Origin: an uncultured Candidatus Saccharimonas sp.
GTDB lineage: Bacteria > Patescibacteriota > Saccharimonadia > Saccharimonadales > Saccharimonadaceae
Length of the DNA stretch: 32,000 nt
Assembly: GCA_963528875.1 (NCBI GenBank)
Contig: CAURWT010000002.1
Span: 90,001 to 122,000 of the forward strand
Direction of reading: 5' to 3'
The first letter of the stretch is position 1. Each line of letters starts with the position of its first letter. The notes below the pieces were generated by a model. The model ran no database searches. It was given only the letters and a program-made list of their open reading frames with translations, and was not told the origin of the DNA. Below, in pieces: positions 3 to 8,294 of this stretch. Made by a program: the position numbers and the translations under genes.

Positions 3-710
3 TTGCGTTCGCCACGAATTGCACTAATGCTTGTTGGGCATAGCAATATTCGAAAACGCGATTTTACGCTAGATATTGGCGCTGGAAGCGGTGTTTTTAC
101 TTTTGCCCTTAGCAAGAAATCTGCTCAAGTTTTGGCAATTGAATTTGACCGCGAAACTTTCAAAAAACTCCAAAATAACACTAAAAATTTAGAGAATATT
201 GAAGTTTTATGCGCAGATTTTTTGCGCTTCAACCTTTCGAAATTACCAAAAAATTATAAAGTTTGCGCAAATATTCCTTTTCACTTGAGTTCACCAATTA
301 TCCAAAAGCTTACAAATGCTCAAAATTCACCAAAAAGCATTTATTTAATTTTACAAAAACAATTCGCCCGCAAACTAATTGTGAGTGATAAAAATTTTAC
401 TTCCGCACTTGGTGTAAAAATATTTCCGTTTTTCGAAAGTAAAATTAAAAAACCTCTTCAAAAATCTGATTTTACGCCTCCACCGGCTGTTGAAACGGTA
501 TTTTTCGAAATGAAACGGCGAGAAACTCCGCTAATTTCGAAGGAAGAACAGCCAATTTTTAATGATTTTATTAAAAAAATGTTTGCTGTGCCAGATTTTT
601 ACAAAAAAAATTGCCAACCAAAATTTAAAACTAAAAAACCAAGCGAATTAAAGGGTGAAGAGTGGTTGGAGATATGGAAGTTTTGGCAAAATTCTGATAA
701 AATAGAATAA
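3..710 (+). CDS. rRNA adenine N6-dimethyltransferase family protein (KsgA/Erm-like paralog); 5' end lies outside the window
   Basis: SAM-binding motif LDIGAGSG, catalytic-type motif ANIPFHLSSPII and a FTPPP motif, all typical of the KsgA/Erm family. The frame is open to the window edge, so the M at position 3 is a track artefact. A better RsmA candidate is at 7398-8294. Confidence 0.8.
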   Translation: MRSPRIALMLVGHSNIRKRDFTLDIGAGSGVFTFALSKKSAQVLAIEFDRETFKKLQNNTKNLENIEVLCADFLRFNLSKLPKNYKVCANIPFHLSSPIIQKLTNAQNSPKSIYLILQKQFARKLIVSDKNFTSALGVKIFPFFESKIKKPLQKSDFTPPPAVETVFFEMKRRETPLISKEEQPIFNDFIKKMFAVPDFYKKNCQPKFKTKKPSELKGEEWLEIWKFWQNSDKIE

Positions 711-712
711 TT

Positions 713-2032
713 ATGGCACGGAAAATTAAGTTCGAAATAGCTAAATTTAATAAAATTACGCCTGGCGGGCAAGCCTTAGGCACGCTTGAAAATGGCAAAA
801 AAATCTTTGCTTGGGGAGTTTTACCAAATGAAACCGCAAAAATTCAAATTACAAAAAGTAAATCGAGTTTTGTAGAGGGTTTTGCGGTTGAAATTTTCGA
901 AAGTTCGCCCGAGAGAATTGAGCAAAAAGATAAGGAGAGTTTTCTTTCAACCAGCCCATGGCAGATTTTTAACTTTGATTTCGAACAAAAAACCAAACAA
1001 GAACTAATTTTTGAAAGTTTTCGCCAAGAAAAAATTGAACTCAAAAACCAAGAAGATTTTTATTCTGATGGTAAAATTTTTGAATATCGCAATAAAGTGG
1101 AGTTTTCATTTTGGTGGGAAAAATCTGGAGAAAATGAAAATGATGGCGAGCTAAGTTTAGCATTTTTTAAGCGTGGAGGAAAGGGAAAAATACCAGTAAA
1201 AGGTACGAGTTTAGCGAAGCCAGAAATCAATCAAGCAGGCCAAAAAGTGCTTGCAATTTTACGAGATAGAAAAACTGCAAGTCGAGATTTGAAGACTTTA
1301 TTAATTCGCGCAAACCAAAAAGGTGAAATTTCAGCCCAACTTTATGTAAAAGATGAAAAGTTTGAGCCATTTTCGAAAAAAGAAATAACTAGCCTTGGAT
1401 TTAAAAATTTTGAGATTATTTTTTCAAACCCAAAATCGCCAGCCAGTGTGATAACTAAAAAGATTCAAAGCCAAAACCAAGAGAATCTGCAAGATTCAGT
1501 TCTTGGCGTGAATTTTAATTATGCAACTGAGAGCTTTTTTCAGATAAATCTACCAGTTTATGAACAGGCTCTGCGCGACATGAAAAAATTCATCGATATT
1601 TCAAAGCCAACAGTTGATTTATACTCCGGTGTAGGATCGATTGGTTTAACGATTGGTGCGGGTGATCTAACTTTGGTTGAAATCAACGAGCCAGCAGTTG
1701 AAGAAATGCGAAGAAATATTACAAAGCTTGGGCGAGAAAAAACCGCAAAAGCTATTTTATCACCAAGCGAAAAAGCTTTAGACTTCATTAAAAAAGGTGC
1801 AAATTTAATTGTTGACCCACCGCGAGCCGGAATGAACCGTGAAGTTTGCGAAAAGATTCTTGAGATAGAGCCAGAAAAGGTGATTTATTTGAGTTGCAAT
1901 CCAACAACGCAAGCACGTGATGCGGCAATTTTAAGTAAAAAATATGAGATAATTTACACTCGTGGCTATAACTTCTTCCCACGAACACCGCATATTGAAA
2001 ACTTAATTATTTTGGAACTTAAAAATCAATAA
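713..2032 (+). CDS. 23S rRNA (uracil-C5)-methyltransferase, RlmD/RumA/RlmCD family (TRAM-like N-terminus plus SAM methyltransferase)
   Basis: Motifs DLYSGVGSIGL (SAM binding), VDPPRAGM and the nucleophile motif YLSCNPTTQARD. There are no cysteines upstream of these motifs, so there is no Fe-S cluster; this resembles Gram-positive RlmCD rather than E. coli RumA. Confidence 0.85.
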   Translation: MARKIKFEIAKFNKITPGGQALGTLENGKKIFAWGVLPNETAKIQITKSKSSFVEGFAVEIFESSPERIEQKDKESFLSTSPWQIFNFDFEQKTKQELIFESFRQEKIELKNQEDFYSDGKIFEYRNKVEFSFWWEKSGENENDGELSLAFFKRGGKGKIPVKGTSLAKPEINQAGQKVLAILRDRKTASRDLKTLLIRANQKGEISAQLYVKDEKFEPFSKKEITSLGFKNFEIIFSNPKSPASVITKKIQSQNQENLQDSVLGVNFNYATESFFQINLPVYEQALRDMKKFIDISKPTVDLYSGVGSIGLTIGAGDLTLVEINEPAVEEMRRNITKLGREKTAKAILSPSEKALDFIKKGANLIVDPPRAGMNREVCEKILEIEPEKVIYLSCNPTTQARDAAILSKKYEIIYTRGYNFFPRTPHIENLIILELKNQ

Positions 2033-2089
2033 AATATTTGAAAATATTGATTTTTTATCTTGCTTATGGTTTAATAATATCATACAGAT

Positions 2090-2281
2090 AAATAACAACA
2101 ATAATCGTTCATTAGAAAGGTGGATTTTCAGTATGAACTCAATTAATAAAAATAATAAAAAAGGTTTCACAATTATTGAAGTTGTGCTTGTGCTTGCCAT
2201 TGCCGGACTTATCTTCTTGATGGTATTCCTAGCACTACCTGCTCTACAACGAAGCCAACGAGATACGCAACGAAAGAATGA
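2090..2281. repeat. Left arm of a perfect 192-bp inverted repeat (5' UTR, RBS and codons 1-50 of pilin A)
   Basis: My base-by-base comparison shows 2090-2281 is the exact reverse complement of 3186-3377. A further shared 15-mer, tgcttatggtttaat, lies upstream at 2061-2075 and 3405-3419, separated from the arms by diverged spacers of different length. Confidence 0.9.
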
Positions 2282-2657
2282 CCTAAGTAGAATATTGGCA
2301 GCGGTAAATGAGTATAGAGCAGCCAATAAAGGAAAACTGCCATCTAATCAAGGAGAAGCTACTTTAGGAGATTTCCCGAAGAAAGATAAAGGCGCAACAG
2401 GATTTATAAAAAATTATTTATTCAAAGATGGTGAGGAGATGAAGGATCCAAGCGGGCGGAACTATGCAGTATTCGACAGAACTCCACACAAACTAGAATA
2501 TAATGACTATTCAGAAACTATAGATATTGAATGGTCGGCAAATGGAGTATGTGACCCATCGCAACCAGATGGAGTGAGAAGAGAAGAAGGAAACAAAGGC
2601 AAAGTAGCACTTCGAATAGTTCTAGAAGCTGGTGGATTCTACTGCGTAAATAACTAG
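2133..2657 (+). CDS. Type IV pilin / pseudopilin (prepilin with N-terminal methylation motif), variant A
   Basis: Class III signal MNSINKNNKKG|FTIIEVVLVLAIAGLIFL (G/F cleavage site, Glu at +5) followed by a hydrophobic alpha1-N helix. A C-terminal Cys pair (GVCDPS...FYCVNN) is consistent with a D-region disulfide loop. SD aaaggtgg lies upstream. Confidence 0.88.
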   Translation: MNSINKNNKKGFTIIEVVLVLAIAGLIFLMVFLALPALQRSQRDTQRKNDLSRILAAVNEYRAANKGKLPSNQGEATLGDFPKKDKGATGFIKNYLFKDGEEMKDPSGRNYAVFDRTPHKLEYNDYSETIDIEWSANGVCDPSQPDGVRREEGNKGKVALRIVLEAGGFYCVNN

Positions 2658-2676
2658 ATATAATCTTAATAAAATA

Positions 2677-2708
2677 AAAAACAGCTTTTCGTTAAGGAAG
2701 CTGTTTTT
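2677..2708. terminator. Bidirectional-looking intrinsic terminator hairpin downstream of pilin A
   Basis: Stem aaaaacagctt (2677-2687) pairs with aagctgttttt (2698-2708) around a 10-nt loop. An A-run precedes it and a T-run follows. Confidence 0.6.
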
Positions 2709-2770
2709 ATTGTGGCACAAAATGTGTCTTTAGTATCCGGTAATTCTAAAATAAACTCATTATCAAAGCC

Positions 2771-2800
2771 AATAGAATAGAATAGAATAGAATAGAATAG
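2771..2800. repeat. Pentanucleotide simple sequence repeat (AATAG)x6
   Basis: Six perfect tandem copies read directly from the sequence. They lie in the non-coding centre between the two convergent pilin genes. Confidence 0.95.
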
Positions 2801-2814
2801 ACTTTCACAAAATT

Positions 2815-2840
2815 AAATAACTCCCCAAAGAGAGTTATTT
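2815..2840 (-). terminator. Hairpin downstream of pilin B (minus strand)
   Basis: A 9-bp stem, aaataactc (2815-2823) with gagttattt (2832-2840), and an 8-nt loop. It starts about 24 nt after the pilin B stop. The stem is AT-rich, so terminator strength is uncertain. Confidence 0.5.
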
Positions 2841-2863
2841 AATTAAGTTTTATGGATTAATCA

Positions 2864-3334
2864 CTAACCTTCAACGCAGTTTGCAACGCCATTTTCAGTC
2901 TTAACAGAAACAGCAATTCCACTACCAGCTATGATAGCTCCGTCTGTGCCACATTTAGCTTGGTTAGAAACTTTCATCTCACCGAGTGTAGTTGGTGCAG
3001 CTGCTTCTCCAGTAGCAGTATTAACTGTGTATTTAGAGTTTGTTGAAGGATCATTAAATGTTGTTGTATCATTCGTTGTGATATATTTACTAATGAAGTC
3101 GCTATTTAGACCACCTCCATCCCAAGGTAATTTTCCTCGGTTGTTTGAAGTATAGTCAGTCACTGCTGCGCGCAATCGTGAAGCATCATTCTTTCGTTGC
3201 GTATCTCGTTGGCTTCGTTGTAGAGCAGGTAGTGCTAGGAATACCATCAAGAAGATAAGTCCGGCAATGGCAAGCACAAGCACAACTTCAATAATTGTGA
3301 AACCTTTTTTATTATTTTTATTAATTGAGTTCAT
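2864..3334 (-). CDS. Type IV pilin / pseudopilin, variant B
   Basis: The first 50 residues match pilin A exactly (MNSINKNNKKGFTIIEV...QRDTQRKND). After that the sequence is only loosely similar (ASRLRAAVTDYTSNNRGKLP versus LSRILAAVNEYRAANKGKLP). A C-terminal Cys pair is present (AKCGTDG...ANCVEG). I chose the start at 3334, not the track start at 3433, because the RBS and leader are then identical to pilin A. Confidence 0.88.
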   Translation of the reverse strand: MNSINKNNKKGFTIIEVVLVLAIAGLIFLMVFLALPALQRSQRDTQRKNDASRLRAAVTDYTSNNRGKLPWDGGGLNSDFISKYITTNDTTTFNDPSTNSKYTVNTATGEAAAPTTLGEMKVSNQAKCGTDGAIIAGSGIAVSVKTENGVANCVEG

Positions 3335-3377
3335 ACTGAAAATCCACCTTTCTAATGAACGATTATTGTTGTTATTT
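3186..3377. repeat. Right arm of the perfect 192-bp inverted repeat (5' UTR, RBS and codons 1-50 of pilin B)
   Basis: Exact reverse complement of 2090-2281. Confidence 0.9.
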
Positions 3378-3474
3378 TTGTTTACGGTCTGTCCGTATGA
3401 AACCATTAAACCATAAGCATAATCATTTTGCAAGCACTTTTTTTTAGGATTTTTTAGTTTTCCACAATTTTAAT

Positions 3475-3963
3475 TTATTTCATTAAAATTTTTTTGTAAG
3501 AATACCTTTGAGCTGTTCGCCACGAACCGATTGAATCAGCATTAAAACAGCGAATTTCACCATCGCGGATTTCAGAAATTTCAATAAGAGCAGGGTTATA
3601 AAGCACGCGTTTTTTATAATATCGCAATTCTTCATCTTTCACATCGTGGCGCCCCGGAAATACCTCTAAAAATTGCACCTTAGCACGGTCGTAAAAATAG
3701 TCTTCGAAACCACTTGGCGGAAAGAAATAAGCTGGTTTTAAGTTCATTTTTGAAAGAATATATTGAATATCGCCCAAAGTTGCACGAGCTTCAAGCGAAA
3801 TAAAAGCATAAACACGACCTTTTTTGCTTTTGAAAATTGTGGCTTCGGCTGAATATCCAACCGAAAGATTACGCGAAATAACTTCTTCAATTCCAAAATT
3901 AACACCAAAATGTTTTTGCAAAAATTCTTCAAGATTTTTATCAGAATAAGCGTGATTTTCCAT
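3475..3963 (-). CDS. Hypothetical protein (162 aa), directly upstream of pilin B on the same strand
   Basis: Long ORF that fills the gap between pcrA (divergent) and pilin B. I recognise no family motif. Confidence 0.6.
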   Translation of the reverse strand: MENHAYSDKNLEEFLQKHFGVNFGIEEVISRNLSVGYSAEATIFKSKKGRVYAFISLEARATLGDIQYILSKMNLKPAYFFPPSGFEDYFYDRAKVQFLEVFPGRHDVKDEELRYYKKRVLYNPALIEISEIRDGEIRCFNADSIGSWRTAQRYSYKKILMK

Positions 3964-4028: not shown

Positions 4029-6170
4029 ATGGAAATTACGGCAGGATTAAATAAAAATCAAAAAGAGGCGGTAGAAACATTAAGCGGGCCAATGCTAATT
4101 TTGGCTGGCGCAGGAAGTGGAAAAACCAAAACCTTAACGCACCGAATTGCGAATATAATTGCGCACGGCGTAGCGAGCGAGGAAATTTTGGCGGTAACTT
4201 TTACCAACAAAGCCGCACGTGAAATGCGAGAGCGACTTGCCGAACTGCTTGATCGAAACGCAAACGACAGATTCTTTATGCCTTGGATGGGAACTTTTCA
4301 CGGAATTTGTGTGAAGATTTTGCGGCTCAAAGGAGAGGCGATTGGCGTTGCAAACAATTTCGTTATTTATGACGAAGACGACCGCCGAAATTTAATTAAA
4401 AAAATAATTAAAGATCTAAAAATCGACGAAAAAAGCTTAAAGCCACAAAGTGTTTCAAGCGCAATTTCGAACGCTAAAAACCAGCTTTTGACGGCCGAAG
4501 AATTTTCAAACGGTGCAAATTGGGGTTTTGAACAAAAAGTAGCTGAAATTTTCTTGCGTTATGAAGAAGAACGAAACAAAGCTAACGCTTTAGATTTTGA
4601 TGATTTACTTTTTGAAACAGTAAAACTACTTCAACAAAATAAAGAAGTTCGTGAATTTTGGCAAAATAAATTTAAGCATATTTTGATTGATGAGTATCAG
4701 GATACGAACGCCGCACAATATGCAATTATTAAAATGATTGTGAATGCTGAGCAAAATATTTGCGTGGTTGGCGATGATTGGCAGAGTATTTATTCTTGGC
4801 GTGGGGCAGATTTTACGAATATTTTAAATTTCGAACGCGATTATAAAGGTGCAAAAGTGATAAAATTAGAACAAAATTATCGCTCAACTGAGAATATTTT
4901 GAACGCTGCACACAATGTTATTTCGAAAAATCGCAATCGAACAGACAAAAAACTTTTCACCGAGCTTGGTAAAGGCGAGCCGGTTTTAGTGCAAAGTGCA
5001 AGAGACGAAAGTGAAGAAGCCGCCAAAATTGCAGGGCAGATTTTTAGTTTTAAAACTGTTGGCGCACGAAAATTTAGCGATTTTGCAATTCTTTATCGCA
5101 CAAATGCACAAAGTTATAATTTTGAAAAAGCGATGATTCGTTTTCAAATTCCGTATAAAATTTTTGGCGGAACACGTTTTTACGACCGCAAGGAAATTAA
5201 AGATATTTTAGCATATTTGCGCGTGATTTATAATCCGCTCGACCGTGTAGCTTTTGAGCGAATTGTAAATGTACCTGCACGCGGTTTAGGCGCGGTGAGC
5301 CTTTCGAAATTCTTAGATTGGCAAAGTTCGAACGGTTTAGATTTGATTTCGAGCCTGCTTCAGGCAAGCGAACTTTCAACTTTAGCCTCACGAGCAAGAA
5401 AATCTTTAGAAAATTTAGGTGAAATTTTTAGAGAGTGTCAAATTCTAAGCGAAAATTCTTCAAACCCGAGCGAAATTATTGAACGAATTTTGGAACGCAC
5501 AAATTACGGCAAAAACGAAAAACTAACCGAAAACGAAGCAACCGAACGGAGCGAGTATCTTTCAACATTAGTGAGTGAAGCAAAAAATTACGCAGATTTG
5601 GCGAGCTTTTTGGAGGACGCCGCACTAATGAGTTCAAGTGATGCACAAAGTGGCGATGAAGTAAATTTAATGACGCTTCACTCAGCAAAAGGCTTGGAAT
5701 TTCCAGTTGTATTTCTTGCTGGAATGGAAGAGGGCATCTTTCCACACAGCCGAGTTTTTGATGCGGGCGAAGATGATCTAGAAGAAGAACGCCGCCTTTG
5801 CTATGTGGGAATGACGCGCGCGCGAGAAGAATTAATTTTAAGCTACGCTGAATCACGAGCGGTTTTTGGGCAGAGGAATTATTCAAGCCCGAGCCGATTC
5901 ATTACAGATGCCGAGCTGGAATTACCGAAAAAAGATTTTGGCGGATGGAATAATTTTTCAGATGATTACGAAGATGATTTTAGCCAAGAAGTTTCTTTTG
6001 ATGATTTTTATTATGACGAAGCAGGATTACAAATTGGCGACCGCGTAAAAAGTCCAGCTTTCGGTGTAGGGAAAGTGCTTGAAATCGATGGAATGGCAAT
6101 TGAGATTAAGTTCGAAAATGGCAAAATTCGCAAATTAAATGCTGAATTTGCACGCCTTGAAAAGCTCTAA
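4029..6170 (+). CDS. pcrA: ATP-dependent DNA helicase PcrA/UvrD (superfamily 1)
   Basis: Walker A AGAGSGKT, DEYQDTN, QNYRS, TLHSAKGLEF and YVGMTRAR motifs. The C-terminal Tudor-like tail (GDRVKSPAFGVGKVLEI...) is typical of PcrA/UvrD. Confidence 0.93.
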   Translation: MEITAGLNKNQKEAVETLSGPMLILAGAGSGKTKTLTHRIANIIAHGVASEEILAVTFTNKAAREMRERLAELLDRNANDRFFMPWMGTFHGICVKILRLKGEAIGVANNFVIYDEDDRRNLIKKIIKDLKIDEKSLKPQSVSSAISNAKNQLLTAEEFSNGANWGFEQKVAEIFLRYEEERNKANALDFDDLLFETVKLLQQNKEVREFWQNKFKHILIDEYQDTNAAQYAIIKMIVNAEQNICVVGDDWQSIYSWRGADFTNILNFERDYKGAKVIKLEQNYRSTENILNAAHNVISKNRNRTDKKLFTELGKGEPVLVQSARDESEEAAKIAGQIFSFKTVGARKFSDFAILYRTNAQSYNFEKAMIRFQIPYKIFGGTRFYDRKEIKDILAYLRVIYNPLDRVAFERIVNVPARGLGAVSLSKFLDWQSSNGLDLISSLLQASELSTLASRARKSLENLGEIFRECQILSENSSNPSEIIERILERTNYGKNEKLTENEATERSEYLSTLVSEAKNYADLASFLEDAALMSSSDAQSGDEVNLMTLHSAKGLEFPVVFLAGMEEGIFPHSRVFDAGEDDLEEERRLCYVGMTRAREELILSYAESRAVFGQRNYSSPSRFITDAELELPKKDFGGWNNFSDDYEDDFSQEVSFDDFYYDEAGLQIGDRVKSPAFGVGKVLEIDGMAIEIKFENGKIRKLNAEFARLEKL

Positions 6171-6213: not shown

Positions 6214-7407
6214 ATGCGAGTTTTACAACCAATTTATTTTTATAAAAAACAGATCACAATTGCGGGATTTATCTCGCTTGGATTTTTACTTTTATTAAAC
6301 ATTTTTGCAATTGCTGGGCGAAATTCCGCCAAAGCTAGCGGTGAAGGAAACAAAATTTTAACTGTTTTCGAAAATGGCCAAAGATTCTCTTTTAAAACTA
6401 ATGCAAAAACAGTTCGAGAAGCATTAAATGCCCAAAAAATTAGTTTTTCGAAAGAGGATACAGTTGAGCCAAGCCTTGATGGCGAGCTAACAGGCACAGA
6501 ATATAGCGTAAATATTTATCGTGCAAAACCAGTAATTATTGAAGACGGCGATTCGAAAATAAAAGTAATGACAGCCGCTCAAACTCCGCGACAGATTGTT
6601 CAAAAATCTGGAATTAAAATTCATAATGAAGATAAAGTTGCCTTCGAACAATCTGGTAGTATTCTTGAAGATGGAACAACAAACTCATTAAAAATTACAC
6701 GAGCAAAAGAGATTTTGGTTGAACTTTTTGGTAAAACCGAAAGTTTTCGAACACAAAGCAAAACCGTAGAAGATTTCTTGAAAGAAAAGAATATATCGCT
6801 CACAAAAGATGATGGAATTTCAATTGATAAAAAAACCATAATTTCGAACGGTTTGAGTTTTCGAATTTGGCGAAACGGTAAGCAAACAATTACAACTGAA
6901 GAAGAAATTTCTTTCTCAACTGAAATAATTAAAGATGCGAATAAAGATTCTAGCTATAAAGAAATAAAAGAAGCTGGGGAAAAAGGCTCGAAAAGCGTAA
7001 CTTATGAAATTGAAATGCAAAATGGTAAAGAAGTTTCACGCAAAAAAATTAACGAGACAGAAATTAAAGCTGCTAAAAAACAAGTTGAGATTGTTGGTAC
7101 AAAAGTTAACCTACCAGCTGGCTCGCACAGCGATTGGTTGAGTGCTGCAGGAATTTCTTCAAGCGACCACGGAATTGCAAATGCAATTATTGGTCAAGAA
7201 TCTGGCTGGCGAGTTAACGCAACAAACAGATCGAGTGGAGCTTATGGTATTCCGCAGGCTTTACCTGGTTCTAAAATGGCTTCAGCTGGAGCTGACTGGC
7301 AAACAAACCCAATCACGCAGCTTAAGTGGATGAATTCTTATGTACTTGGTCGCTATGGAAGCTGGCAAAACGCTTATGCCCATAAAAAAGCAAAGGGTTG
7401 GTATTAG
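6214..7407 (+). CDS. Secreted or membrane-anchored cell-wall protein with YabE/RpfB-like architecture: N-terminal TM, DUF348-like repeats, G5 domain, C-terminal lysozyme/transglycosylase-like domain
   Basis: TM segment ITIAGFISLGFLLLLNIFAIA; repeated segments of the type KTVREALNAQKISFSKEDTVEPSLD; a G5-like block (...KEAGEKGSKSVTYEIEMQNGKEV...VEIVGTK). The C-terminus GQESGWRVNATNRSSGAYGIPQALP...RYGSWQNAYAHKKAKGWY resembles Gram-positive transglycosylase / aggregation-promoting-factor C-termini. I chose the start at 6214 to avoid overlap with pcrA. The order yabE-like, ksgA, metS, tatD echoes the Bacillus neighbourhood. Confidence 0.7.
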   Translation: MRVLQPIYFYKKQITIAGFISLGFLLLLNIFAIAGRNSAKASGEGNKILTVFENGQRFSFKTNAKTVREALNAQKISFSKEDTVEPSLDGELTGTEYSVNIYRAKPVIIEDGDSKIKVMTAAQTPRQIVQKSGIKIHNEDKVAFEQSGSILEDGTTNSLKITRAKEILVELFGKTESFRTQSKTVEDFLKEKNISLTKDDGISIDKKTIISNGLSFRIWRNGKQTITTEEEISFSTEIIKDANKDSSYKEIKEAGEKGSKSVTYEIEMQNGKEVSRKKINETEIKAAKKQVEIVGTKVNLPAGSHSDWLSAAGISSSDHGIANAIIGQESGWRVNATNRSSGAYGIPQALPGSKMASAGADWQTNPITQLKWMNSYVLGRYGSWQNAYAHKKAKGWY

Positions 7408-8294
7408 TGGTAAATTTGAAATTTAATCAAAAATCTGGTAAAAAGTTTTCGAAAAAATCCAAAAATAGCGAAAATTTAAACTTAAAAAATAATAAATCAC
7501 TTGGTCAGCACTGGTTGCGAGACAGGGTTGTTCTAGATGGAATTGCAGAAGAAGCTGAAATCAAAAATGGTGATTTCGTACTTGAGATCGGTCCAGGGCT
7601 TGGAACTTTAACTTCTTCACTTTTAAAATTCGCAGGTAAAGATGGTGAAGTTCTCTCAATCGAGTTTGATGAAAATTTGGCAAAAAAACTACCAGCGCAA
7701 TTCCCAGGGAAAAATTTAACCGTAAAAAATACGGATTTTTTGGATTTTGATCTTTCGAAATTACCAAAAAATTATAAAGTTGCTGCGAACGTACCGTATT
7801 ATATTACTTCAAAAATTGTTGAAAAATTACTCACTAGCGAGAATAAGCCAAGTATTGCCGCACTTTTAGTGCAAAAAGAAGTTGCTGAGAGGATTTGCGC
7901 AAAATCTGGCGATTTAAGTGTTTTATCAATTGCATCACAGATTTATGCCGATTGCAAACTTGGCCAATTTGTACCACGAGAGCTATTTACGCCGCCACCA
8001 AAAGTTGATTCGCAAGTAGTAATTCTAAAAATTCTAGAAAAGAATAAGCTTGAGTGTTTTAATGAACAAAATAATGCTAAAATATCAGAAAAACAATTTT
8101 TCCGTATAGTTAAAGCTGGTTTTACCGCTCGACGAAAAAAAATCCTAAAAGCATTAAGTGCAAATTTGGCATTGAGCAAAGAACAAACAATTGAGATCCT
8201 CACACAAGCCAAGGTTTCACCAGATGCGCGCGCACAAGAATTAACTATCGAAAACTGGCTTGAAATTACTCGATACTATTTTGATTCTAAATAA
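7398..8294 (+). CDS. rsmA: 16S rRNA (adenine1518/1519-N6)-dimethyltransferase RsmA/KsgA
   Basis: SLGQHWL, LEIGPGLGTLT (SAM binding), ANVPYYITS and FTPPPKVDS motifs; the full-length family architecture is present. The exact start is uncertain (TTG 7398 or GTG 7407). Confidence 0.9.
   Translation: MVLVVNLKFNQKSGKKFSKKSKNSENLNLKNNKSLGQHWLRDRVVLDGIAEEAEIKNGDFVLEIGPGLGTLTSSLLKFAGKDGEVLSIEFDENLAKKLPAQFPGKNLTVKNTDFLDFDLSKLPKNYKVAANVPYYITSKIVEKLLTSENKPSIAALLVQKEVAERICAKSGDLSVLSIASQIYADCKLGQFVPRELFTPPPKVDSQVVILKILEKNKLECFNEQNNAKISEKQFFRIVKAGFTARRKKILKALSANLALSKEQTIEILTQAKVSPDARAQELTIENWLEITRYYFDSK

What the first reader, a model, noticed from the sequence alone, without database searches (positions are those of the whole stretch)
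2061..3419. Convergent type IV pilin pair bracketed by perfect 192-bp inverted repeats: candidate recombinational pilin switch with no invertase nearby
Two pilin genes face each other: A at 2133-2657 (+) and B at 2864-3334 (-).
- The repeat: segment 2090-2281 is the exact reverse complement of 3186-3377. It covers 43 nt of 5' UTR, the RBS and codons 1-50 (leader peptide plus the alpha1-N helix). I checked this base by base.
- Where identity ends: it stops abruptly. The next about 25 codons remain homologous at protein level but are heavily diverged at DNA level, and the C-terminal domains differ.
- Why this is unusual: protein-level constraint cannot explain identical synonymous sites and an identical UTR. 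The arms must be homogenised by ongoing recombination or gene conversion.
- What inversion would do: homologous recombination between the arms would invert 2282-3185, which holds both variable 3' halves, both terminators and an (AATAG)6 repeat. That exchanges which variable domain sits behind which upstream region.
- Why the swap could matter: the upstream regions differ. Beyond a shared 15-mer (2061-2075 / 3405-3419) the spacers are 14 nt versus 27 nt and unrelated. Pilin B can also be read through from the upstream gene 3475-3963. An inversion could therefore change relative expression of two antigenically distinct pilins.
- Precedent: this is formally like the Moraxella tfpQ/tfpI pilin inversion, but no Piv-like or tyrosine/serine recombinase gene is in the window. 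Type IV pili are reported to mediate host attachment in episymbiotic Saccharibacteria, so surface variation would be plausible biology here.
Basis: partly seen in the sequence, partly recalled or inferred. Interest (0 to 1): 0.8.

Follow-up and report, generated by a model that had tools for sequence, protein, structure and literature searches.

The report
Paired pilin genes sharing recombining fronts
Two facing pilus-subunit genes in an uncultivated oral Saccharibacterium share a front end that recombination keeps nearly identical, but public assemblies show one stable orientation, so this looks like gene-copy homogenisation and not a proven flip-switch.

Summary
Window 2090-2281 is the exact reverse complement of 3186-3377 (192 nt). 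It covers the 5' leader, ribosome-binding site and codons 1-50 of two convergent type IV pilin genes.

Related oral G6 Saccharibacteria (Nanogingivalaceae) give the history:
- Sister species have a single, B-like pilin at this site, so pilin A is a clade-specific inverted addition that carries a copy of B's promoter, leader and N-terminus.
- In 26 assemblies that span the whole locus, the arms are identical in 13, with nine different haplotypes among them. They differ by 2-10 nt in the other 13.
- Outgroup polarity shows sequence copying in both directions, which is the signature of concerted evolution by homologous recombination.
- All 26 spanning assemblies have the window's orientation.
- About 24 contigs carry an inverted junction. 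All are short, low-coverage or end inside the inter-arm segment, two continue into sequence foreign to the locus, and none reaches the second arm.

With arms this long, short-read contigs cannot prove inversion. Both genes also keep a complete promoter-like region in either orientation, so inversion would not switch a pilin on or off. One asymmetry remains: the window's A leader has lost a conserved 15-nt palindrome. No recombinase gene was found in the window. A regulated switch remains possible but is not shown.

The parts
713..2032 (+). Left flank: RumA-like rRNA/tRNA (uracil-5) methyltransferase gene, convergent with the ancestral pilin
   Evidence: Pfam PF05958 at 3.8e-17. It is syntenic in all related loci.
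2047..2075 (+). Promoter-like region of pilin A: TTGATT, 17-nt spacer, TGG-TTTAAT. It includes the shared 15-mer 2061-2075.
   Evidence: Read from the sequence. The TGnTTTAAT box and the 17-nt spacing to a TTGnnn box are conserved upstream of the pilin in every species aligned. The simple consensus scan did not call it, because the scan requires A at position 2 of the -10 box. Promoter function is inferred.
2090..2281 (+). Left arm of the perfect inverted repeat: 43 nt of leader with the ribosome-binding site (GAAAGGTGGA, 2115-2124) plus codons 1-50 (minus the last base) of pilin A
2133..2657 (+). Pilin A, 174 aa. A clade-specific paralogue with its own globular domain and two C-terminal cysteines.
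   Evidence: The A-type domain was found only in this clade, as three 90%-identity clusters plus fragments.
2282..3185 (.). Inter-arm segment (904 nt) that would invert if the arms crossed over. It holds both variable 3' parts, both terminators and the short repeat.
2680..2712 (+). Terminator-like hairpin plus T-run after pilin A
   Evidence: Fold gives -10.1 kcal/mol, z = -3.1.
2771..2800 (.). (AATAG)6 short tandem repeat. Its length differs between strains, and it is a frequent contig break point.
2811..2844 (-). Terminator-like hairpin after pilin B
   Evidence: Fold gives -18.4 kcal/mol, z = -4.8.
2864..3334 (-). Pilin B, 156 aa. The ancestral pilin of this site. Gene callers often extend it to the TTG at 3433 (189 aa).
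   Evidence: A B-like pilin is the only pilin at this site in sister species.
3186..3377 (-). Right arm of the perfect inverted repeat
3383..3397 (-). Conserved palindrome TACGG-ACAGA-CCGTA in the B leader. A 13-nt deletion has removed it from the A leader in this window.
   Evidence: Alignment of pilin upstream regions across species. Presence and absence across 26 genomes are tabulated. It forms a small 5-bp hairpin in the fold, and the leader as a whole folds no better than shuffles (z = -0.76). Function is unknown.
3405..3433 (-). Promoter-like region of pilin B: TTGCAA, 17-nt spacer, TGG-TTTAAT
   Evidence: Promoter function is inferred.
3475..3963 (-). Right flank: conserved 162-aa ORF of unknown function, upstream of and co-directional with pilin B
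   Evidence: No Pfam or NCBIfam hit. It was used as the synteny anchor and is also present next to the pilin in single-pilin species.

Best explanation
**What it is.** This is a pair of paralogous type IV pilin genes in an oral G6 Saccharibacterium (Nanogingivalaceae). The ancestral site held one pilin (B-type) between the 162-aa ORF and the RumA-like gene.

**How it arose.** In one clade a second pilin (A) was added in inverted orientation. It carried a copy of B's whole expression and assembly module: the -10 region, the leader, the ribosome-binding site, the prepilin signal and the hydrophobic alpha1-N helix. That module is joined at codon 50/51 to a different globular domain.

**How it is maintained.** The two inverted modules are kept identical or nearly so by homologous recombination between them. 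This is gene conversion that has run in both directions in different lineages. Absolute purifying selection on the 50 N-terminal residues adds to it.

**The window.** The derived A-side haplotype now sits on both arms, which indicates a recent A-to-B conversion.

**Orientation.** The arrangement is stable. Crossovers that would invert 2282-3185 are expected as rare by-products of the same recombination. They would not turn either pilin on or off, because each side has its own promoter-like region.

**Likely function (inferred).** The cell can make two pilins with the same processing and polymerisation module but different exposed domains. The exposed domains are the most variable part of the locus.
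For: **Shown**
- The 192-nt repeat is exact.
- Both proteins are prepilins.
- Sister species, whose ORF162 is 91-94% identical at amino-acid level, and Ca. Nanogingivalis gingivitcus (70%) have one B-like pilin at the site.
- In those sister species the arm DNA is only 81-85% identical to the window although the N-terminal protein is 94-100% identical (98-100% in most loci). Silent sites therefore drift between species.
- Within the two-pilin clade, 13 of 26 spanning assemblies have identical arms, in nine haplotypes. The rest differ by 2-10 nt and share derived variants in patches. The within-genome mean is 2.6 mismatches against 5.8 between genomes, and 0 of 10,000 permutations reach the observed value.
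- Outgroup states make CC at arm positions 85/88 and the A, T, T states at 115, 118 and 140 of the TCATT block (109-140) ancestral; 109 and 112 vary among the outgroups. These states sit mostly on B arms. The window haplotype is derived and sits on both arms in WIN, L004, L006 and L008. The ancestral TCAT block (109-118) sits on both arms in L044, L067, L073 and L075. Conversion has therefore run both ways.
- The inner boundary is at the same base in almost all 26 genomes (inward extension 0 in 24, 1 nt in L038 and L067). The outer boundary varies.
- Nucleotide diversity is 0.025-0.032 in the arms, 0.05-0.08 in flanking genes and 0.09-0.11 in the variable parts.
- dN is 0 in codons 1-50. dN/dS is 0.12 for the A domain, 0.30 for the B domain and 0.05-0.07 for neighbouring genes.
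- All 26 assemblies that span both arms are canonical. Thirteen of them have perfect arms that only read pairs could orient, so the assemblers were not choosing at random there.
- A conserved TTGnnn-N17-TGnTTTAAT region lies upstream of both genes.

**Background**
- Saccharibacteria are naturally competent and do allelic exchange (PMC10633639; PMC11623550, read).
Against: - Identical arms in short-read assemblies can be exaggerated when assemblers collapse near-identical repeat copies (bubble popping). The count of 13 of 26 is therefore an upper bound, and some patchy haplotypes could be artefacts.
- About 24 contigs from different samples join the A-side flank to the B domain (L011, L014-L016) or the ORF162 flank to the A domain (L021-L029, L047, L065, L105-L108, and further exact-match records). 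If even some of these are genuine, inversion does occur, and stability is not absolute.
- The two expression sites are not identical in this window. They have different -35 boxes, and the A leader lacks the conserved palindrome.
- Promoter activity, co-expression and RecA dependence were not tested.
Confidence: 0.6

Rival explanations
1. Recombinase-independent pilin switch. Homologous recombination between the arms reversibly inverts 2282-3185. This moves the two globular-domain cassettes between two non-equivalent expression sites and so changes the relative amounts of the two pilins.
For: - Inverted junctions are present in about 24 contigs from many samples and several assemblers.
- One A allele occurs in 8 inverted-junction contigs (P0004) against 4 canonical contigs (P0006).
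- Some inverted-junction arms carry the ancestral TCATT block on the ORF162 side next to the A domain. If the partner arm in that strain were the derived type, k-mer mis-joining could not have produced this.
- The sites differ: TTGATT against TTGCAA at -35, and the conserved leader palindrome is missing on the A side in 20 of 26 genomes.
Against: - No inverted contig reaches the second arm, while 26 of 26 spanning assemblies are canonical.
- For the window's own A allele there are 60 canonical contigs (longest 375 kb) against 3 inverted-junction contigs (longest 2.2 kb).
- In the unbiased anchor-based samples, one-arm contigs are 4 to 4 and spanning contigs 11 to 0.
- Many one-arm contigs of both kinds end in the (AATAG)n repeat.
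- L014 and L022 continue into sequence that matches no other locus.
- With perfect 192-nt arms an inverted genome creates no new k-mer, so such contigs are not evidence.
- Strains exist with identical arms of the alternative haplotype (L039), so mis-joining cannot be excluded.
- Both sites have full promoter-like regions, so there is no on/off logic.
Confidence: 0.2
2. Recent origin only. Pilin A was built recently by copying B's 5' module onto a foreign pilin 3' part, and the arms are identical simply because there has been no time to diverge. No ongoing conversion is needed.
For: - The inner boundary lies at the same base in almost all 26 genomes (within 1 nt). This fits a single founding junction.
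- The A-type domain is restricted to this clade.
Against: - Arms differ between genomes at 23 sites (between-genome dS 0.13-0.18) yet are identical within 13 genomes, in nine haplotypes.
- The A arm had acquired its own derived variants, which now appear on B arms, and the reverse has also happened.
- Time alone cannot produce this pattern.
Confidence: 0.08
3. Assembly artefact. The inverted repeat or its perfection is produced by a collapsed or duplicated repeat in a metagenome assembly.
For: - The window is probably from a metagenome-assembled genome. Every close relative found is a MAG or a metagenome contig.
- Assemblers can collapse near-identical copies.
- Several scaffolds have N gaps inside the inter-arm segment.
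Against: - The same architecture was recovered in 26 assemblies made with megahit, SPAdes and metaSPAdes from different cohorts, all but one pair distinct in sequence among those compared.
- These include megahit k=141 contigs whose arms differ by 3-9 nt and are therefore resolved by k-mers (L003, L030, L037, L038).
- Both genes are intact and under purifying selection.
Confidence: 0.04

Closest known systems
Concerted evolution of inverted paralogues by RecA-dependent gene conversion, e.g. tufA/tufB of Salmonella and E. coli, where conversion and chromosomal inversion are linked outcomes (recalled from general knowledge, not read here)
   Same: - Two inverted copies are kept near-identical within a genome while differing between genomes.
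- Conversion tracts are patchy and run in both directions.
- Inversion is an expected rare by-product.
- No dedicated recombinase is involved.
   Different: - Here only the 5' module (leader plus 50 codons, 192-235 nt) is homogenised, and the rest of each gene is unrelated in sequence.
- The copies are 0.9 kb apart and convergent.
- RecA dependence is untested.
Moraxella bovis / M. lacunata tfpQ/tfpI pilin inversion by the Piv recombinase (recalled from general knowledge)
   Same: - Two alternative pilin C-terminal regions lie in opposite orientation.
- The repeats lie in the conserved N-terminal pilin coding sequence.
   Different: - No piv-like or any other recombinase gene is in the window.
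- Both genes here are complete, each with its own promoter-like region, so inversion would not select which pilin is made.
- Both orientations have not been demonstrated.
Campylobacter fetus sapA-homologue inversion (RecA-dependent, using conserved 5' regions; recalled from general knowledge)
   Same: - Long conserved 5' regions of surface-protein paralogues serve as inverted homology.
- No site-specific recombinase is needed.
   Different: In C. fetus a single promoter on the invertible element serves otherwise silent cassettes. Here there are two promoter-like regions outside the invertible segment and no silent copy.
Loci with two major-pilin paralogues, e.g. Streptococcus sanguinis pilE1/pilE2 (PDB 8pfb PilE1 is the best solved-structure hit of pilin A) and Legionella pilA1/pilA2 (PMC13170364, abstract only)
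   Same: Adjacent paralogous pilins have the same N-terminal assembly module and different exposed parts. They may be assembled by one machine.
   Different: - Those pairs are, as far as I recall, tandem and not convergent, and are not bracketed by long perfect inverted repeats.
- Co-assembly is not tested here.
Neisseria pilE/pilS antigenic variation (recalled from general knowledge)
   Same: Recombination among pilin copies, with diversity concentrated in the exposed C-terminal part.
   Different: pilS copies are promoterless and lack the 5' constant region, and conversion changes the variable part. Here the constant part is the one converted, and both copies are expressible.

Membership tests
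Type IV pilin / prepilin (class III signal peptide proteins) | N-terminal cleavage/methylation motif recognised by family models | tested here: met
   PF07963 scores 28.2 and 28.6 bits against a cut-off of 21.2. TIGR02532 scores 22.8 and 23.2 bits against a cut-off of 16.3.
Type IV pilin / prepilin (class III signal peptide proteins) | Short basic leader ending in Gly, then Phe+1 and Glu+5, followed by about 20 hydrophobic residues | tested here: met
   Both genes read MNSINKNNKKG|FTIIEVVLVLAIAGLIFLMVFLALPAL directly from the translations.
Type IV pilin / prepilin (class III signal peptide proteins) | Globular C-terminal domain with a disulfide-bonded loop, and similarity to solved pilins | tested here: inconclusive
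   Each protein has two Cys near its C-terminus. The PDB sequence hits are weak: PilE1 8pfb at 2.3e-05 covers residues 12-139 of A, and the hits for B cover only the helix. No structure was predicted.
Type IV pilin / prepilin (class III signal peptide proteins) | Processed by a prepilin peptidase and polymerised by a pilus machine; major rather than minor pilin | not testable with these tools
   No pilB, pilC, pilD or pilT gene is in the window. The role as major pilin is inferred from size and from the TM7x precedent (PMC11623550).
Site-specific invertible pilin switch (Piv / tfpQ-tfpI type) | Recombinase gene next to the invertible segment | tested here: not met
   No recombinase family hit in any ORF of 100 aa or more in the 32-kb window, nor in the called genes of related loci that extend further upstream of the window's start.
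Site-specific invertible pilin switch (Piv / tfpQ-tfpI type) | One fixed promoter plus constant 5' part outside the segment, so only one complete pilin gene exists at a time | tested here: not met
   Both genes are complete, and each has a conserved promoter-like region, a ribosome-binding site and an ATG.
Site-specific invertible pilin switch (Piv / tfpQ-tfpI type) | Both orientations coexist in populations | tested here: inconclusive
   26 of 26 spanning assemblies are canonical. About 24 short contigs carry inverted junctions and cannot be told apart from mis-joins.
Recombinase-independent (RecA-type) inversion system, C. fetus sap type | Long inverted homology formed by conserved 5' regions of surface-protein paralogues | tested here: met
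   192 nt perfect here and up to 235 nt in relatives.
Recombinase-independent (RecA-type) inversion system, C. fetus sap type | A unique promoter is moved among otherwise silent cassettes | tested here: not met
   Two promoter-like regions lie outside the invertible segment, and there is no silent cassette.
Concerted evolution of paralogues by gene conversion | Paralogous tracts are more alike within a genome than between genomes | tested here: met
   Mean 2.6 against 5.8 mismatches. 13 of 26 are identical, in nine haplotypes. 0 of 10,000 permutations reach the observed value. Caveat: assemblers may collapse repeat copies.
Concerted evolution of paralogues by gene conversion | Patchy, bidirectional transfer of variants shown by outgroup polarity, and a sharp edge where homology ends | tested here: met
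   Searches show the polarity. Searches show the edge at the same base in almost all 26 genomes (within 1 nt) and the fall in third-position identity from 0.98 to 0.44.
Concerted evolution of paralogues by gene conversion | Dependence on the homologous recombination machinery (RecA) | not testable with these tools
   Needs genetics. No recA gene is in the window.

The most novel reading that the evidence does not exclude
Low-frequency crossovers between the arms act as a recombinase-free bet-hedging switch in a CPR bacterium. They move the two pilin globular-domain cassettes between a leader that carries the conserved TACGG-N5-CCGTA palindrome (a regulated or stabilised transcript) and a leader that has lost it. 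This would change which pilin dominates the pilus, and with it host or partner binding. On this reading the scattered inverted-junction contigs would be real minority variants.
Probability: 0.12. Interest if true: 0.7.

Novelty: new variant of a known kind. Interest (0 to 1): 0.4.

Why it matters
Type IV pili are the organelles that Saccharibacteria use to find and hold their bacterial hosts, to move and to compete (PMC11623550, PMC9894109).

This locus shows how an uncultivated oral lineage gained a second pilin. It duplicated only the promoter, leader and assembly module, and recombination has kept that module uniform while the exposed domains diversify. The B domain has dN/dS 0.30 against about 0.06 for neighbouring genes.

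It is a clean natural example of module-level concerted evolution, documented across 26 assemblies. It also yields testable elements: a conserved pilin promoter-like region and a leader palindrome.

It carries a caution as well. Inverted repeats longer than the read or k-mer length generate inverted-looking contigs, and these should not be read as phase variation.

If the switch reading were confirmed with long reads, it would be a recombinase-independent surface-variation mechanism in the CPR.

Tried and rejected
1. **Exact-protein look-ups as an orientation census**.
   - These are informative but biased. Gene callers extend whichever pilin follows the ORF162-side spacer, so the 174-aa A and the 156-aa B select opposite orientations. 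I therefore relied on the ORF162-anchored, unbiased fetches.
2. **Long-read evidence.**
   - Judging from their accession series (recalled, not checked), the BNJS-BNJV saliva assemblies appear to be long-read assemblies.
   - They carry either single-pilin relatives or the A-deleted form (L089, L099-L101), so they say nothing about inversion of the intact pair.
3. **Same-sample reciprocity.**
   - I looked for a sample in which both inverted junctions were assembled. The samples of L011, L014-L016 and of L105-L106 do not overlap. This is inconclusive.
4. **Arm variants as phase markers.**
   - I asked whether inverted-junction arms could only have arisen by real crossover. This fails because strains exist with both arms of the alternative haplotype (L039, L012).
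5. **Promoter and terminator consensus scan**.
   - It called neither pilin promoter, because TTTAAT fails its A-at-position-2 rule, and it missed both pilin terminators. Cross-species alignment and folding were used instead.
6. **Leader palindrome as an RNA hairpin.**
   - Folding is no better than shuffles (z = -0.76). The stem never varies in most species (only the diverged L063 A-side copy changes it), so there is no covariation evidence either way.
7. **Recombinase search.**
   - The unannotated ORFs gave nothing in Pfam or NCBIfam.
8. **Literature search**.
   - No report of inverted-repeat pilin pairs in Saccharibacteria was found.
9. **Structure prediction and fold search.**
   - Not run. 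They would not bear on the inversion question.
Full report
**1. Observation**

Window 2090-2281 is the exact reverse complement of 3186-3377 (192 nt). The match extends by no further base on either side. The repeat finder reports it as the only long inverted repeat in the first 8 kb (199 nt at 98%, 904 nt between the arms). Shuffled sequence gives exact inverted words of 11-16 nt at most.

The arms hold 43 nt of leader with the ribosome-binding site, plus codons 1-50 (minus the last base) of two convergent ORFs:
- A: 2133-2657 (+), 174 aa.
- B: 2864-3334 (-), 156 aa.

Both pass the prepilin N-terminal models, PF07963 and TIGR02532. Both read MNSINKNNKKG|FTIIEVV..., and both give weak hits to solved type IV pilins.

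After codon 50, DNA identity falls from 0.99 to 0.53 and then 0.29. Third-position identity falls from 0.98 to 0.44. Each gene is followed by a hairpin terminator, and (AATAG)6 lies between them. No ORF in the 32-kb window matches a recombinase family. The description is therefore correct.

One detail is wrong. The sequences outside the arms are related: the A spacer is the B spacer with a 13-nt deletion and a few substitutions.

**2. Source and relatives**

Exact-protein look-ups and synteny searches anchored on the neighbouring 162-aa ORF returned more than 100 loci. They come from human oral metagenomes and from MAGs labelled Saccharibacteria, Nanogingivalaceae or TM7 G6. Three architectures occur between the 162-aa ORF and the RumA-like gene:
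- **Pair as in the window.** Found in the closest relatives.
- **One B-like pilin only.** Found in sister species (ORF162 91-94% identical) and in Ca. Nanogingivalis gingivitcus (70%).
- **Intact B plus a pilin A with a 413-nt internal deletion.** The deletion corresponds to window positions about 2106-2518. Several contigs of the BNJ* accession series, probably long-read assemblies, have this form.

B is therefore ancestral at this site. A is a clade-specific inverted addition that can be lost. The A-type globular domain was found nowhere outside this clade.

**3. Arms recombine with each other**

- In single-pilin sister species the arm-equivalent DNA is only 81-85% identical to the window, although the 50 residues are 94-100% conserved (98-100% in most loci). 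Protein constraint alone does not freeze silent sites.
- Among 26 assemblies that span both arms, the two arms are identical in 13. These 13 fall into nine different haplotypes. The other 13 differ at 2-10 positions and share derived variants in patches.
- Mean within-genome distance is 2.6 mismatches, against 5.8 for A-B comparisons between genomes. None of 10,000 re-pairings reaches the observed value.
- Using the sister species as outgroup, CC at arm positions 85/88 and the A, T, T states at 115, 118 and 140 of the TCATT block (109-140) are ancestral (109 and 112 vary among the outgroups), and these states sit mostly on B arms.
- The window's haplotype is derived. It is typical of A arms, and it lies on both arms in the window, L004, L006 and L008.
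- In L044, L067, L073 and L075 the ancestral TCAT block (109-118) lies on both arms.
- Sequence has therefore been copied from A to B in some lineages and from B to A in others.
- The inner edge of identity is at the same base in almost all 26 genomes (within 1 nt). The outer edge varies from 192 nt to 233-235 nt of perfect repeat.
- Diversity between genomes is lowest in the arms (0.025-0.032), intermediate in neighbouring genes (0.05-0.08) and highest in the two globular-domain parts (0.09-0.11).
- dN is zero in codons 1-50. dN/dS is 0.12 (A domain) and 0.30 (B domain), against 0.05-0.07 in neighbours.

Caveat: short-read assemblers can merge near-identical repeat copies, so some identical arms may be overstated. 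However, megahit k=141 contigs whose arms differ by 3-9 nt, and which are therefore resolved by k-mers, show the same near-identity and shared variants (L003, L030, L037, L038).

**4. Does the segment invert?**

All 26 spanning assemblies have the window's orientation, RumA then A, with B facing back from ORF162. Thirteen of these have perfect arms that only read pairs could orient. Under arbitrary choice, 13 of 13 canonical would be unlikely, so the canonical state really dominates in those samples.

About 24 contigs carry an inverted junction:
- A-side flank, arm, B domain: L011, L014-L016.
- ORF162 flank, arm, A domain: L021-L029, L047, L065, L105-L108.
- Further exact-match records appear.

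None of them reaches the flank beyond the second arm. Most are under 5 kb, and those with recorded coverage are at 1.3-6.6x. The longest (34.5 kb, L021) ends in the (AATAG)n repeat 172 nt after pilin A. L014 starts with 168 nt that match no other locus, and L022 leaves the locus after the short repeat.

For the window's own A allele there are 60 canonical contigs (up to 375 kb) against 3 inverted-junction contigs (up to 2.2 kb). In the two unbiased anchor-based samples, spanning contigs are 11 to 0 and one-arm contigs are 4 to 4. Contigs of both kinds commonly stop in the (AATAG)n repeat.

An inverted genome with perfect 192-nt arms contains no k-mer that the canonical genome lacks. Such contigs are therefore what fragmentary assemblies are expected to produce by chance.

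Some inverted-junction arms would require a true crossover if the partner arm in that strain were of the other haplotype. But strains with both arms of that haplotype exist (L039, L012), so this argument fails.

Conclusion: inversion is neither demonstrated nor excluded. If it occurs, it is rare or disfavoured.

**5. Would inversion matter?**

Aligning pilin upstream regions across species shows a conserved TTGnnn, 17-nt spacer, TGnTTTAAT arrangement. A palindrome TACGG-N5-CCGTA lies 8-22 nt downstream of it, and then the leader and ribosome-binding site follow.
- Pilin A has its own TTGATT at the correct spacing (2047-2075). Pilin B has TTGCAA (3433-3405).
- Both genes are therefore complete expression units in either orientation, and an inversion would give the same two proteins.
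- The one notable asymmetry is that the A leader has lost the palindrome through a 13-nt deletion in the window and in 20 of 26 genomes. In the other 6 the A leader keeps it.
- The palindrome's function is unknown. It folds no better than shuffled sequence, and its stem is unchanged in most species (only the diverged L063 A-side copy alters it), so covariation gives no evidence either way.
- A quantitative effect of swapping cassettes is thus conceivable but unsupported.

**6. Comparison with known systems**

- In mechanism the locus behaves like inverted paralogues under gene conversion, the tufA/tufB type.
- In layout it resembles the Moraxella tfpQ/tfpI and Campylobacter fetus sap inversions. 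It fails their defining features: no recombinase gene, and no single promoter serving alternative or silent cassettes.
- Functionally it is closest to loci with two major-pilin paralogues, such as S. sanguinis pilE1/pilE2. The PilE1 structure is the best solved hit of pilin A.
- Published work on Saccharibacteria pili describes separate pilin loci and natural competence. It does not describe an arrangement of this kind.

**7. Verdict**

- The feature is real and reproducible.
- The inference of ongoing recombination between the arms is supported.
- The claim of a pilin switch is not supported. The orientation is uniform wherever it can be trusted, and both sides carry promoter-like regions.
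- The best reading is module-level concerted evolution of a duplicated pilin expression and assembly module, with diversifying exposed domains (confidence 0.6).
- Interest is moderate (0.4). The switch reading keeps a probability of roughly 0.1-0.2, and read-level data from the named samples would settle it.

Noticed in passing
window 2771-2800; L003 about 6640-6660; ends of L021, L107, L011, L045 and L046; N gaps in L001, L004 and L009: The (AATAG)n repeat between the two pilin terminators differs greatly in length between strains. It has about 1 unit in L003, 6 in the window, and at least 10-14 units where contigs end inside it. It is the commonest assembly break inside the locus. No function is evident.
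   Followed up: partly
window 3383-3397 (- strand); missing at window about 2083-2089: A palindrome TACGG-N5-CCGTA lies just downstream of the -10-like box in the pilin leader. It is conserved in every species examined, including one only 70% identical in neighbouring proteins. A 13-nt deletion has removed it from the pilin A leader in the window and in 20 of 26 two-pilin genomes. It could be an operator or a 5' stem-loop.
   Followed up: partly
L068 5287-5507, L071, L089, L099-L101 (corresponds to window about 2106-2518): Some strains, including contigs of the BNJ* series (probably long-read assemblies), carry a 413-nt internal deletion of pilin A. It removes the ribosome-binding site, the start codon, most of the arm and two thirds of the gene, but keeps A's promoter-like region and last 45 codons or so. 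Pilin A is therefore dispensable, and the inverted repeat is lost in those lineages.
   Followed up: yes
L037 12224-12525; L043, L048, L058 and L059 about 82-234; L054 465-602; L060 502-648: Several relatives have a further pilin-like gene (N-terminus 82-93% identical) about 4.5 kb away, beyond the second rRNA adenine dimethylase gene. The window has no third pilin: a prepilin motif scan and tblastn find only A and B.
   Followed up: partly
window 3-710 and 7398-8294: Two rRNA adenine dimethylase (RrnaAD) family genes lie 7 kb apart on the same strand. They share a 92-nt stretch at 73% identity (216-307 and 7734-7825). These are diverged paralogues, unlike the homogenised pilin arms.
   Followed up: no
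L014 1-168; L022 about 4050-4314: Two of the inverted-junction contigs continue into sequence found in no other locus: an unrelated 168 nt in L014, and a SHOCT-domain ORF after the short repeat in L022. This suggests chimeric joins in short, low-coverage contigs.
   Followed up: partly
window 3475-3963 (- strand): The 162-aa ORF upstream of pilin B has no Pfam or NCBIfam match. It is nonetheless conserved next to the pilin in all relatives, down to 70% identity in a named species and lower in error-rich BNJ* contigs. It could be a pilus-related or lineage-specific gene of unknown function.
   Followed up: no
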